Shown here piece by piece: positions 13,391 to 15,788 of a stretch of 64,000 nucleotides of DNA. Numbering within the stretch: position 1 is the stretch's first letter; each line of letters starts with the position of its first letter. The stretch lies in the NCBI GenBank assembly GCA_021399345.1, contig JAAFKI010000112.1:96001-160000 (forward strand), given 5' to 3'. A model generated the notes under the pieces. That model saw only the letters and a program-made list of their open reading frames with translations, was not told the origin of the DNA and searched no databases. The DNA comes from Candidatus Heimdallarchaeota archaeon (GTDB lineage Archaea > Asgardarchaeota > Heimdallarchaeia > Heimdallarchaeales > Heimdallarchaeaceae). Position numbers and translations under genes: made by a program.

Positions 13391-13601
13391 ACTACACCCC
13401 TTGCCATTATGATTGAATCCATACCGACATATTAAGGTATCTCTATAACCTCTGCATAGATATCCGAAGATATAATAGTGAATCTGAAAGCACTCTTCCA
13501 AAATAGGTAAATATGAGGTATATATTATGTAAAAAATAATTGATTCTCGTTTCAAGATTCAAAAAAAAAAATGAATTAAGGACTAATATTCAACATGATA
13601 C

Positions 13602-13751
13602 TTAAAATGACTGAGATAAAGCAGATAAGGAGAGCAATCCAATTACTATTAAAACACATATGGAGATAGCATAAACTAGAAACATACCAAAATAGGATCT
13701 TGCTTTTTCCATTCTAGCTTTTCTTTTTATCTGATTAATATTTGACATCAT
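13602..13751 (-). CDS. 49-aa basic + single-TM microprotein (operon A, last gene)
   Basis: MMSNINQIKRKARMEKARSYFGMFLVYAISICVLIVIGLLSLSALSQSF; GAGGTGA RBS; same length as, and homologous to, 15563..15712. Confidence 0.8.
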   Translation of the reverse strand: MMSNINQIKRKARMEKARSYFGMFLVYAISICVLIVIGLLSLSALSQSF

Positions 13752-13769
13752 TTTTATTTCACCTCTTTT

Positions 13770-13910
13770 GTGATCAGCTTCTTTGTACTCCACCAGAAGA
13801 GGATGGGTACTTTCCTGACCGTGCACAACTGTTTGTGGTGAAGTTGACTAATCTTGCCATGCGTCCTCTACCTAGTTATGGGGAGATGTAGGAAAGAGAA
13901 GCATGGGTGT
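13770..13910 (-). ncRNA. Putative structured 5' leader or small RNA upstream of the 49-aa gene
   Basis: Minus-strand stems ccatgc/gcatgg + ttctc/gagga + ccta/tagg, caact/agttg, ggtcag/ctgatc + gtac/gtac; G-U pairs favour minus strand; starts about 20 nt after TATATAAA (13926-13933). Confidence 0.45.
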
Positions 13911-13925
13911 TTTTTTTTCTTCGGG

Positions 13926-13934
13926 TTTATATAT
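13926..13934. promoter_or_regulatory. TATA box, possibly bidirectional, between the two structured regions
   Basis: TTTATATAT, flanked on both sides by structured GC-rich DNA starting 20-30 nt away. Confidence 0.5.
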
Positions 13935-13949
13935 GAAAGTACACATAGA

Positions 13950-14345
13950 AAGCTAGATAGTGTGCGCTTCAGCACCTGCCTGTTTCGCAACTACACAAGT
14001 GGTTGTCTCTCAGTGAACTTACAATGAAACGGGGAGCCTAGCTAGCTCTATGCTGAAGGTCCACTTACTATTCCAGAACAAAGTCTGGATGACTTCCCCT
14101 CAACGCACGTGAGGGGACCCACTTAAACGACGGTTAGAAAGCCTCTGGCAAGTTTAACCAAGTTTCATAACGTGCGTGATACAGGTATCAGGGGAGCAAG
14201 ATGAAAAACTTGCAGCACACGAACATTCATCTTAGCTCAGATCCTGATCCTTAGCAGACGAAGTGTCTGCGGTAGTGAGTGTTTCAGCAAGAAACAATCA
14301 GCGCGATAGAGATCAACCAGATAGAAGGTTGATCAAGATATAATC
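13950..14345 (+). ncRNA. Large (~400 nt) structured non-coding RNA of unknown class
   Basis: No ORF; about 45-50% GC by hand count in an AT-rich window; 8 or more stems, 2-3 long-range/pseudoknot pairings; G-U pairs favour the + strand. Confidence 0.65.
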
Positions 14346-14399
14346 ATAAATGCAAGAAGAATAAGAAGAGGAAAAGTGGTTAAATCACTTCTCTAAATC

Positions 14400-14543
14400 T
14401 TATAGATATCTTACTGCTACTAGAGCTCCTCCAAAAACTACACCAAGAGCATATAGAAATACTGGCAGAGCGATTCGGAGAATTCTCCAGAGATGTACAA
14501 CTGGTCTTTCAATTTTATAGATCCATTGTGGTCTGTTTATCAT
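14400..14543 (-). CDS. 47-aa single-TM microprotein (operon A), not in the ORF track
   Basis: MINRPQWIYKIERPVVHLWRILRIALPVFLYALGVVFGGALVAVRYL; GGAGGTGAAAAAGA-ATG identical to the RBS of 16205; RP..L.RIL...LP shared with the N-terminus of 15789..16205. Confidence 0.8.
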   Translation of the reverse strand: MINRPQWIYKIERPVVHLWRILRIALPVFLYALGVVFGGALVAVRYL

Positions 14544-15712: not shown

Positions 15713-15788
15713 TTATACCACCTCGGTTTTGTTTCTAAAAAAATTCGAAAGAAGAAAATGATTTTGATCACTTTCTTCCTCGTTACAA

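What the first reader, a model, noticed from the sequence alone, without database searches (positions are those of the whole stretch)
13950..14345. ~400-nt GC-rich, ORF-free, pseudoknotted putative ncRNA embedded antisense in operon A
Stems seen: cttcagca/tgctgaag (13967-74/14051-58); caactac-acaa-gtggttg (13988-14005); tccaga/tctgga (14072-89); tcccctca-acgcacg-tgagggga (14095-14117); ggttaga/tttaacc (14132-59); a long arm atcagg..gagc-aagatgaa / ttcatctt-a-gctc..cctgat (14187-14248); gcagac/gtctgc (14254-70); tgtttc/gaaaca (14280-96); gatcaacc/ggttgatc (14311-34). The 7-nt loop acgcacg (14103-09) is perfectly complementary to cgtgcgt (14171-77). Loop gcacac (14215-20) is complementary to gtgtgc near the 5' end (13960-65). 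atgaaac (14024-30) pairs with gtttcat (14162-68). Three G-U pairs favour the + strand, and a TATA box lies about 25 nt upstream. Operon B lacks this element at the equivalent position. Inference: a large tertiary-structured RNA (ribozyme, scaffold or antitoxin) of a class I do not recognise.
Basis: partly seen in the sequence, partly recalled or inferred. Interest (0 to 1): 0.9.

Follow-up and report, generated by a model that had tools for sequence, protein, structure and literature searches.

The report
Guide-RNA mini-transposon beside a resident RNA
The supposed single 400-nt novel RNA is really two unrelated things side by side: a 355-bp jumping element that carries only the guide-RNA gene of a TnpB-type transposon, and the conserved folded RNA motif of the host locus it landed next to.

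Summary
The stems are real and fold better than shuffles (z -5.8), but the region is a chimera. Six related genomes have the same locus with window 13822 joined directly to 14178.

**Left part, 13823-14177 (355 bp).** This is an inserted, ORF-less mobile element. At least 17 copies occur in 10 genomes, each after a 5'-ACCGT target. Each copy has a left end, its own conserved TATA box and a ~220-nt covarying RNA. The last 85 nt of that RNA, including the loop-to-3'-end pseudoknot, are the right end found after every 642-646-aa TnpB/Cas12-fold gene of this Heimdall-group archaeon. I read it as a standalone, mobilised omega-RNA (guide-RNA) gene. That is a known kind, and this scan has already met the same transposon family in sister genomes.

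**Right part, 14178-14345.** This is resident DNA: a covarying ~130-165-nt RNA motif with no Rfam match. I found 16 copies in 12 of 25 genomes of one genus. It always lies between two small membrane-protein genes of a micro-protein cassette. Its strand and function are unresolved.

One crosses the insertion boundary, and the other loses to a covarying local helix.

The parts
13818..13822 (+). Target / TAM-like motif 5'-ACCGT immediately left of the inserted element
   Evidence: Present at the left flank of 16 of 17 mini-element copies. It is also present in the uninterrupted site of G018, which reads CTGACCGT|GATACAGG.
13823..14177 (+). Inserted ORF-less mini-transposon (355 bp): a standalone omega-RNA element
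   Evidence: Six related genomes join 13822 directly to 14178. At least 17 copies at unrelated loci in 10 genomes. Because CGTG occurs at both junctions, the boundaries are ambiguous by up to 4 nt.
13823..13912 (+). Left end of the element, containing the conserved AAGTTGACTAATCTTGCCAT block
   Evidence: Conserved in all copies. A similar left end after CCGT lies upstream of the TnpB-like genes in C88 and C129.
13926..13935 (+). Element-borne archaeal TATA box (GGGTTTATATATG context) preceded by a T-run
   Evidence: Invariant or nearly so in 17 copies and in the second mini-element type. It resembles the TATA box in front of the TnpB-like ORFs. Transcription was not shown.
13956..14092 (+). 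5' domain of the element RNA: long-range helix cttcagca/tgctgaag enclosing CCTGTTTC/GAAACGGG, hairpin caactac/gtggttg, GAGC/GCTC, then hairpin tccaga/tctgga
   Evidence: RNAalifold and pair counts on 16 copies: 9 pairs with compensatory changes, 93% of cells paired, 0/500 shuffles reach the score.
14093..14177 (+). Shared 85-nt right end / omega-RNA 3' scaffold: hairpin 14095-14117, stem 14132-14159, and a pseudoknot between loop 14103-14109 and 14171-14177
   Evidence: 12 copies in this genome. Four of them directly follow 642-646-aa TnpB-like ORFs whose stop codon lies in the hairpin. More than 200 matches in relatives. Pseudoknot compensatory changes.
14178..14197 (+). Predicted guide segment of the omega-RNA (flanking DNA just outside the right end)
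   Evidence: Inferred from the known OMEGA layout (PMC10691335). The sequence after the right end differs in every copy. Preceded by ACCGT, it matches the uninterrupted allele of G018.
14183..14251 (.). Resident motif, long hairpin arm (ATCAGG.../...CCTGAT base, conserved GCACAC apical loop)
   Evidence: Present without the insertion in six genomes. Diverged copies keep the base helix and the loop motif, with compensatory changes.
14254..14304 (.). Resident motif hairpins 2 and 3 (gcagac/gtctgc; tga-tgtttc/gaaaca-tca with conserved AGCAA loop and CAGCG tail)
   Evidence: TGA/TCA becomes TGT/ACA in the diverged subgroup.
14311..14334 (.). Perfect 8-bp inverted repeat GATCAACC-N8-GGTTGATC, seen only in the close subgroup
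   Evidence: Absent or replaced in the diverged copies. It lies between a minus-strand A/T box and the motif, so it may be a DNA operator rather than RNA (inference).
14337..14349 (-). Conserved A/T box TTTATGATTAT(AT), a possible minus-strand promoter element
   Evidence: Recurs next to the motif in 10 of 11 copies inspected. Spacing to the motif is not conserved and function was not shown.
14371..14393 (-). Terminator-like hairpin plus T-rich tract after the 47-aa gene
   Evidence: The hairpin is conserved in diverged copies.
14400..14543 (-). 47-aa membrane micro-protein gene (cassette gene 2)
   Evidence: ORF. Homologues flank every motif copy.
13602..13751 (-). 49-aa membrane micro-protein gene (cassette gene 3), now separated from the resident motif by the insertion
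   Evidence: ORFs. Homologues flank every motif copy.

Best explanation
The finding is two RNAs joined by a transposition event.

**(1) Window 13823-14177: a non-autonomous mini-transposon.** It belongs to the family whose full-length members carry a 642-646-aa TnpB/Cas12-fold protein. It keeps the family's left end, a TATA promoter and the right end. In place of the protein gene it has a compact, covarying 5' RNA domain. Transcription from its own promoter would give a ~220-nt omega-RNA scaffold ending in the conserved pseudoknot, followed by a guide copied from the flanking DNA (14178 onward). Loaded in trans onto the TnpB-like protein encoded elsewhere in the genome, this RNA would direct the protein to the uninterrupted allele (ACCGT plus the flank sequence). 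That promotes retention or homing of the element, as described for OMEGA systems. Movement itself would need a transposase supplied in trans, probably an IS607-type serine recombinase.

**(2) Window 14178-14345: resident DNA.** It is a genus-specific structured RNA motif belonging to a three-gene micro-protein cassette. Most likely it is a cis-acting leader or intercistronic element of the 49-aa membrane-peptide gene, or an antisense RNA to that leader.

**Shown:** the insertion, multi-copy status, the shared right end, the protein fold, and covariation in both RNAs.
**Inferred:** transcription, loading onto TnpB, guide function, which transposase moves it, and the function of the resident motif.
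For: **Empty sites.** Six sister genomes align continuously across 13822|14178. In a 31-genome search the query splits exactly at 14177.

**Mobility.**
- At least 17 copies at unrelated loci, each after ACCGT and each ending ...AACGTGCGT.
- The second copy in this genome splits an MBL-fold gene. Precise excision restores a 278-aa ORF, and an intact 295-aa homologue exists in G008.

**Link to TnpB.**
- The last 85 nt equal the sequence that overlaps the stop codon of four 642-646-aa ORFs here.
- Those ORFs hit Pfam PF07282 and the NCBIfam TnpB and Cas12f2 models, all weakly and over the C-terminal ~55 residues only, and PDB Cas12f/TnpB chains by sequence.
- An AlphaFold model (pLDDT 86) has as its top 50 Foldseek hits only Cas12f, TnpB, Fanzor and other Cas12-type effectors.

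**RNA structure.** 93% of cells are paired, 9 pairs are compensatory, and 0/500 shuffles reach the score. The pseudoknot covaries twice.

**Selection on the RNA.** The promoter is conserved in all copies, and a second mini-element type has a different 5' domain but the same hairpin-CCCTCAG module.

**Known kind.** PMC10691335 states that mobilised standalone omega-RNAs lacking effector and transposase exist and work in trans.

**Resident motif.**
- 16 copies in 12 of 25 genomes of the genus, none in 22 other genomes of the order.
- Every copy whose flanks I inspected lies between the same two micro-protein genes.
- 90% of cells are paired and 23 pairs are compensatory, with a covariation score of 0.237 against 0.115 for shuffles and 0.02-0.05 for slid controls.
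- Fold z is -5.6 on the + strand and -6.5 on the - strand.
Against: - Transcription, RNA ends and TnpB binding are therefore untested.
- The canonical third RuvC aspartate of the TnpB-like family is histidine, so nuclease activity is uncertain.
- Only one broken serine-recombinase gene lies next to a family member, and no Y1 transposase was found in an 88.6%-complete assembly. The mobilising enzyme is not identified.
- The alignments used for the resident motif were fitted to the model, which inflates pair counts.
- Strand indicators for the motif conflict. G-U versus A-C counts (55 vs 18) and summed MFE (-715 vs -687 kcal/mol) lean to the + strand. Gene order, the minus-strand A/T box, the gene-2 terminator and the T-run that follows gene 3 on the minus strand (13561-13571) lean to the - strand.
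Confidence: 0.85

Rival explanations
1. One large, tertiary-structured non-coding RNA of a new class spanning 13950-14345.
For: The whole stretch folds well beyond shuffles. There is no Rfam match. Read-through from the element promoter into the resident motif is physically possible because both are drawn on the + strand.
Against: The two halves occur separately in other genomes: the left half at more than 15 unrelated loci, the right half in 6 uninterrupted orthologous loci. The only proposed contact across the junction (gcacac/gtgtgc) therefore cannot be a conserved feature. The left half is the omega-RNA end of a TnpB element.
Confidence: 0.03
2. The 355-bp element is a decaying internal-deletion remnant (a MITE) that is moved passively. 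Its RNA has no function of its own.
For: It has no ORF. Internal-deletion derivatives of insertion sequences are common. No expression data.
Against: The promoter and a ~130-nt 5' domain that is absent from the parent's coding sequence are conserved, with compensatory changes, over copies that are only 74-85% identical. A second mini-element type keeps the same architecture with a different 5' domain. Standalone omega-RNAs are reported to work in trans (PMC10691335).
Confidence: 0.12
3. The left part is a self-splicing element (a group I or group II intron fragment or a similar ribozyme). An earlier first reader suggested this for the same repeat in another genome.
For: A loop-to-end 7-nt pairing and stacked hairpins superficially resemble intron tertiary contacts.
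Against: No match to any Rfam intron or ribozyme model, even at E up to 10. The element carries its own promoter and a transposon left end. The same 85 nt is the right end of TnpB genes. In C16 the insertion introduces in-frame stops and no splice signals were recognised.
Confidence: 0.01
4. The resident motif (14178-14345) is the antisense-RNA component of a type I toxin-antitoxin-like module. Its toxin would be the 49-aa membrane peptide, and the motif region would be transcribed on both strands.
For: The small basic-plus-hydrophobic peptide gene always lies about 60 nt from the motif. Structure is strong on both strands. G-U counts lean to the strand opposite the gene.
Against: No transcription data and no recognisable + strand terminator. 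The micro-proteins match no known toxin family. The alignment is biased toward the modelled strand.
Confidence: 0.2

Closest known systems
Standalone (effector-less) mobilised omega-RNAs of OMEGA/TnpB systems (Altae-Tran et al. 2021, as summarised in PMC10691335)
   Same: No effector or transposase gene. Shares the right-end RNA scaffold with effector-carrying copies in the same genome. Multi-copy with empty sites. The guide position is immediately outside the right end.
   Different: Found in a Heimdall-group Asgard archaeon. It carries its own archaeal TATA promoter and a dedicated 5' RNA domain that replaces the part normally embedded in the tnpB 3' coding region. The partner protein is unusually long (642-646 aa) and has His instead of the third RuvC Asp.
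ISDra2 / ISFba1 TnpB omega-RNA (reRNA) (PDB 8h1j, 8iaz)
   Same: Transposon right-end RNA overlapping the 3' end of tnpB. A pseudoknot involves the nucleotides just before the guide. The partner protein has the TnpB/Cas12f fold.
   Different: No detectable sequence similarity of the RNA, and no Rfam model matches. The target motif is ACCGT. The transposase context looks IS607-like rather than Y1.
IS607-family insertion sequences (MerR-HTH serine recombinase TnpA plus TnpB)
   Same: One family member (C89) lies next to a MerR-HTH/resolvase gene fragment. The same dinucleotide (GT, within CGTG) is found at both junctions, as expected for a serine-recombinase crossover. No target duplication beyond that.
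   Different: Most copies, and all mini-elements, lack tnpA. The adjacent recombinase gene is broken. Recombinase involvement was not shown.
Structured 5' leaders / type I toxin-antitoxin antisense RNAs next to small membrane peptides
   Same: The resident motif lies at a fixed distance from a ~49-aa basic-plus-transmembrane peptide gene and is strongly structured.
   Different: No sequence or Rfam relation to any described family. Strand and transcription are unknown. It is confined to one archaeal genus.

Membership tests
Standalone mobilised omega-RNA element (OMEGA/TnpB) | RNA scaffold / right end shared with effector-encoding copies in the same genome | tested here: met
   The 85 nt are 89-98% identical to the sequence after three of the four TnpB-like ORFs, and about 85% to the fourth (C129).
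Standalone mobilised omega-RNA element (OMEGA/TnpB) | No effector or transposase gene inside the element | tested here: met
   The element is 355 bp. Only chance ORFs of up to 57 aa overlap it.
Standalone mobilised omega-RNA element (OMEGA/TnpB) | Evidence of mobilisation (multiple loci, empty sites) | tested here: met
Standalone mobilised omega-RNA element (OMEGA/TnpB) | Partner protein is a TnpB/Cas12-type RuvC protein | tested here: met
   Pfam PF07282 sits exactly at its cut-off (26.3 bits), and the NCBIfam TnpB (24 bits vs 100) and Cas12f2 (27 bits vs 450) hits fall far below theirs. Foldseek top 50 hits are all Cas12f/TnpB/Fanzor/Cas12. D433 and E532 are invariant, but the third catalytic position is His.
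Standalone mobilised omega-RNA element (OMEGA/TnpB) | Conserved RNA secondary structure with a pseudoknot next to the guide | tested here: met
Standalone mobilised omega-RNA element (OMEGA/TnpB) | RNA is expressed, binds the effector and guides it in trans | not testable with these tools
This needs RNA-seq, RIP and a targeting assay.
IS607 family | MerR-HTH serine recombinase TnpA encoded with tnpB | tested here: inconclusive
   Only C89 has an adjacent recombinase fragment, and it is broken (103-aa ORF, one stop). C88, C4 and C129 have none. No Y1 transposase in the genome.
Known large structured RNAs in Rfam (RNase P, SRP, group I/II introns, OLE, ROOL, GOLLD, HEARO etc.) | Match to the family covariance model | tested here: not met
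   No hit at gathering score in the 64-kb window. In the region and in an uninterrupted orthologue, only chance-level hits at E of about 0.9 or above.
Type I toxin-antitoxin module (for the resident motif) | Small hydrophobic toxin peptide plus an antisense RNA overlapping its mRNA | tested here: inconclusive
   A peptide of the right kind is always adjacent. Antisense transcription is untestable here and the strand indicators conflict.

The most novel reading that the evidence does not exclude
The resident ~130-165-nt motif (14178-14345) is a new, genus-restricted regulatory RNA family of a three-gene micro-protein cassette in Heimdall-group Asgard archaea. It could be, for example, an archaeal type I toxin-antitoxin-like antisense RNA or a ligand- or protein-sensing leader controlling a 49-aa membrane peptide. 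In this genome the omega-RNA mini-transposon has landed 5 nt from it, and its promoter now reads into the motif.
Probability: 0.3. Interest if true: 0.5.

Novelty: new member of a known kind. Interest (0 to 1): 0.3.

Why it matters
**It removes a false lead.** A "new 400-nt pseudoknotted RNA class" is shown to be a chimera created by a transposon insertion.

**The mini-element.**
- It is a clean natural example of a promoter-bearing, effector-less guide-RNA gene that travels as its own transposon in Asgard archaea.
- Its TAM-like motif (ACCGT), scaffold and guide position are now mapped, which helps anyone who wants to test this long, His-variant TnpB family.

**The resident motif.** It is a small but genuinely unannotated covarying RNA tied to a conserved micro-protein cassette. 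It is worth an Rfam-style description and an expression test.

Tried and rejected
- **Rfam.** Gathering and E-value scans of the window, the region and an uninterrupted orthologue found nothing.
- **tRNA/tmRNA scan.** None found.
- **Coding explanations.** The flanking micro-ORFs have no Pfam hit. A 42-aa + strand ORF crosses the empty site in two relatives, but it is frameshifted in G012, G008 and this window, so I rejected it.
- **C/D-box sRNA.** The only hint is a non-significant sR33 hit at E 5. Rejected.
- **Group II intron reading.** No model match. Rejected.
- **Autonomous-element left end.** A search for the mini-element's left-end motif in this genome found it only in the two mini-element copies. 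Weaker similarity was seen upstream of the C88 and C129 copies.
- **Protein-atlas look-ups** of two cassette micro-proteins gave nothing informative.
- **Strand of the resident motif.** G-U/A-C counts and MFE lean to +, while gene layout leans to -. Left unresolved.
- **Order-level search for the resident motif.** No copy outside the genus.

Full report
**Observation.** All listed stems are at the stated coordinates. G+C rises to 44-48% against a 30-37% background. No ORF of 40 aa or more lies in 14028-14399, and TTTATATA sits at 13927-13934. The + strand of 13940-14345 folds at -137 kcal/mol against -104 +/- 5.8 for dinucleotide shuffles (z -5.8). The - strand gives z -3.2. Rfam gives no match at gathering score in the whole window and only chance-level hits in the region.

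**The region is composite.** A search of the window's own assembly showed that only part of the region is repeated. Window 14093-14177 recurs 12 times, often at contig ends, and 13913-14177 recurs once more at 84% identity. In 31 genomes of the family, the query 13900-14400 splits exactly at 14177. The left part matches many unrelated loci, and the right part matches one locus per genome.

Six sister genomes (G018, G016, G024, G023, G008, G012) align continuously across window 13822|14178. Their site reads CTGACCGT|GATACAGG or a variant of it. So 13823-14177 (355 bp) is an insertion. Its ends are ambiguous by up to 4 nt because CGTG occurs at both junctions. 14178-14345 is resident DNA.

**What the insertion is.** In four contigs the 85-nt repeat directly follows, and overlaps the stop codon of, a 642-646-aa ORF that ends ...NTHxNAAxNIA...DSFPSPHV*.
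- That protein hits Pfam PF07282 and the NCBIfam TnpB and Cas12f2 models only weakly, and only at its C-terminus.
- It hits Cas12f/TnpB chains of the PDB by sequence.
- An AlphaFold model built on 31 family members (mean pLDDT 86) has as its 50 best Foldseek matches in the PDB only Cas12f, TnpB, Fanzor2 and other Cas12-type effectors (best 8hr5_A, E 2.6e-10).
- Source names place its homologues in Heimdallarchaeota/Heimdallarchaeaceae, with a few in Thorarchaeota.

The 85 nt are therefore the right end and 3' omega-RNA scaffold of a TnpB-type element.

The 355-bp insertion has no gene. It has:
- a left end with a conserved AAGTTGACTAATCTTGCCAT block, resembling the left ends seen after CCGT upstream of the C88 and C129 copies;
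- a T-run and a TATA box conserved in all copies, resembling the one in front of the TnpB-like ORFs;
- a ~220-nt RNA-like part.

I collected 17 copies from 10 genomes. Sixteen follow 5'-ACCGT. Every copy whose right end lies within its contig (16 of the 17) ends ...AACGTGCGT, and the sequence beyond the right end differs in every copy. The other copy in this genome (C16) splits an MBL-fold gene. Removing exactly the element restores a 278-aa frame, and G008 has an intact 295-aa homologue.

**RNA structure of the mini-element.** On 16 copies (74-99% identical) RNAalifold predicts 61 pairs, 7 with compensatory changes. In this structure 93% of cells are paired, 9 pairs have compensatory changes, and 0 of 500 shuffles reach the covariation score. 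Slid controls give 33-42% pairing.

The loop-to-3'-end pseudoknot (ACGCACG with CGTGCGT) is invariant among mini-elements. It shows two independent compensatory changes in TnpB-linked copies: ATGCACG/CGTGCAT and ACACACG/CGTGTGT.

The GAAAC pairs with CCTGTTTC, and that helix covaries, while the long-range pair breaks in the same sequences. The gcacac/gtgtgc pairing joins inserted and resident DNA and cannot be a conserved feature.

A second mini-element type has the same ends and promoter but a different 5' domain. It retains a hairpin followed by CCCTCAG. This argues for selection on the RNA.

**Mechanism (inferred).** PMC10691335 states two things. [quoted passage not shown] Mobilised standalone omega-RNAs lacking effector and transposase occur in genomes with effector-containing loci and function in trans. 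The present element fits that description.

Its predicted guide (14178 onward), together with the ACCGT motif, matches the uninterrupted allele seen in G018. This is the geometry expected for TnpB-assisted retention or homing.

The mobilising enzyme is not identified.
- No Y1 transposase was found (the assembly is 88.6% complete).
- Three serine recombinases are present. One is broken and lies next to the C89 family member.

An IS607-type affiliation is therefore likely but unproven.

The family's third RuvC residue is His where TnpB and Cas12f have Asp. D-to-H variants are described in PMC10691335. Whether this family cleaves DNA is open.

**The resident part.** 14178-14345 alone folds with z -5.6 on the + strand and -6.5 on the - strand. 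It is more conserved than the flanking micro-genes.

A covariance model built from 7 orthologues found diverged copies. After one iteration there were 16 copies in 12 of 25 genomes of the genus and none in 22 other genomes of the order.

Every copy whose flanks I inspected (11 of the 16, including all of the diverged subgroup in the first search) lies between a 47-51-aa membrane-protein gene and a 46-49-aa membrane-peptide gene. A ~50-aa basic coiled-coil gene lies one step further out, and all three are on the opposite strand to the motif as drawn.

Two relatives also carry the motif in the 'operon B' paralogue, which has lost it in this genome.

On the model-fitted alignment 90% of cells pair and 23 pairs show compensatory changes. 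The covariation score is 0.237, against 0.115 for shuffles and 0.02-0.05 for slid controls.

Conserved single-stranded motifs are the GCACAC apical loop and CAGCAAGAAACAATCAGCG. They suggest a specific partner. Hairpin 4 (GATCAACC-N8-GGTTGATC) occurs only in the close subgroup and may be a DNA operator.

**Strand of the resident motif: unresolved.** G-U versus A-C counts (55 vs 18, from a biased alignment) and summed MFE (-715 vs -687 kcal/mol) lean to the + strand. The gene order, a terminator-like hairpin after gene 2, a conserved minus-strand A/T box and a T-run after gene 3 on the minus strand (13561-13571) lean to a minus-strand leader. No expression data could be obtained.

**Comparison and novelty.** The left part is a new member of a known kind, a standalone mobilised omega-RNA. 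Earlier follow-ups of this scan reached the same reading for the full-length element, its right-end scaffold and its pseudoknot in sister genomes. First-stage notes in other genomes had flagged the mini-element itself. I re-derived these points independently here.

The resident motif is unannotated and genus-specific, and its function is unknown. It carries whatever novelty remains.

**Verdict.** The interpretation as one novel large RNA is not supported. Interest is modest.

Noticed in passing
L010:1246-3174 (G000:C89), L011:1195-3123 (C88), L009:692-2632 (C4): The 642-646-aa TnpB-like family has an invariant Asp (D433) and Glu (E532). It has His where TnpB and Cas12f have the third RuvC Asp (VNTHxNAAxNIA versus NADxNAA). 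Its zinc-ribbon positions read H-C...C-C.
   Followed up: partly
L027:1501-1985(-), L028:1501-1985(-), L031:1505-1989(-); G000:C104:1-103: A second type of ORF-less mini-element. It has the same ACCGT target, left end, TATA box and 85-nt right end, but a different ~190-nt 5' RNA domain that still contains a hairpin followed by CCCTCAG.
   Followed up: partly
L012:2747-3098 (G000:C16): The second type-1 copy in this genome interrupts an MBL-fold (Lactamase_B) gene. Precise excision restores a 278-aa frame, and G008:C46 has the intact 295-aa gene.
   Followed up: yes
window 13818-13826 versus 14127-14135; most copies: In most copies the left junction reads AACCGT|CGT. This is the reverse complement of the invariant ACGACGGTT inside the right-end scaffold. 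In the window copy only the ACCGT part matches. It may be a recombinase site or an RNA-DNA contact.
   Followed up: no
window 14204-14208: This genome has five A's in the long-arm loop where all six orthologues have four, a 1-nt insertion in the resident motif.
   Followed up: no
window 13823-13934, minus strand: Another first-stage note reads 13602-13934 as a minus-strand structured leader of the 49-aa peptide gene starting at a TATA box at 13926-33. Most of that stretch is the left end of the inserted mini-element and is absent from the orthologous loci.
   Followed up: yes
L057:1501-1666 (G012:C85), L070:1501-1666 (G008:C54); window about 15713-15788: Relatives carry a second copy of the resident motif in the paralogous cassette ('operon B'), between a ~126-aa TM/repeat protein gene and a 49-aa peptide gene. 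In this genome that gap is only ~76 nt and the motif is missing.
   Followed up: partly
G000 whole assembly: 21 TnpB-type (PF07282) genes are present. 17 are of ordinary size (open frames 210-537 aa, several cut by contig ends) and four belong to the 645-aa family. There are three serine recombinases and no Y1 transposase. A truncated 61-nt right-end remnant lies at C81:137-197.
   Followed up: partly
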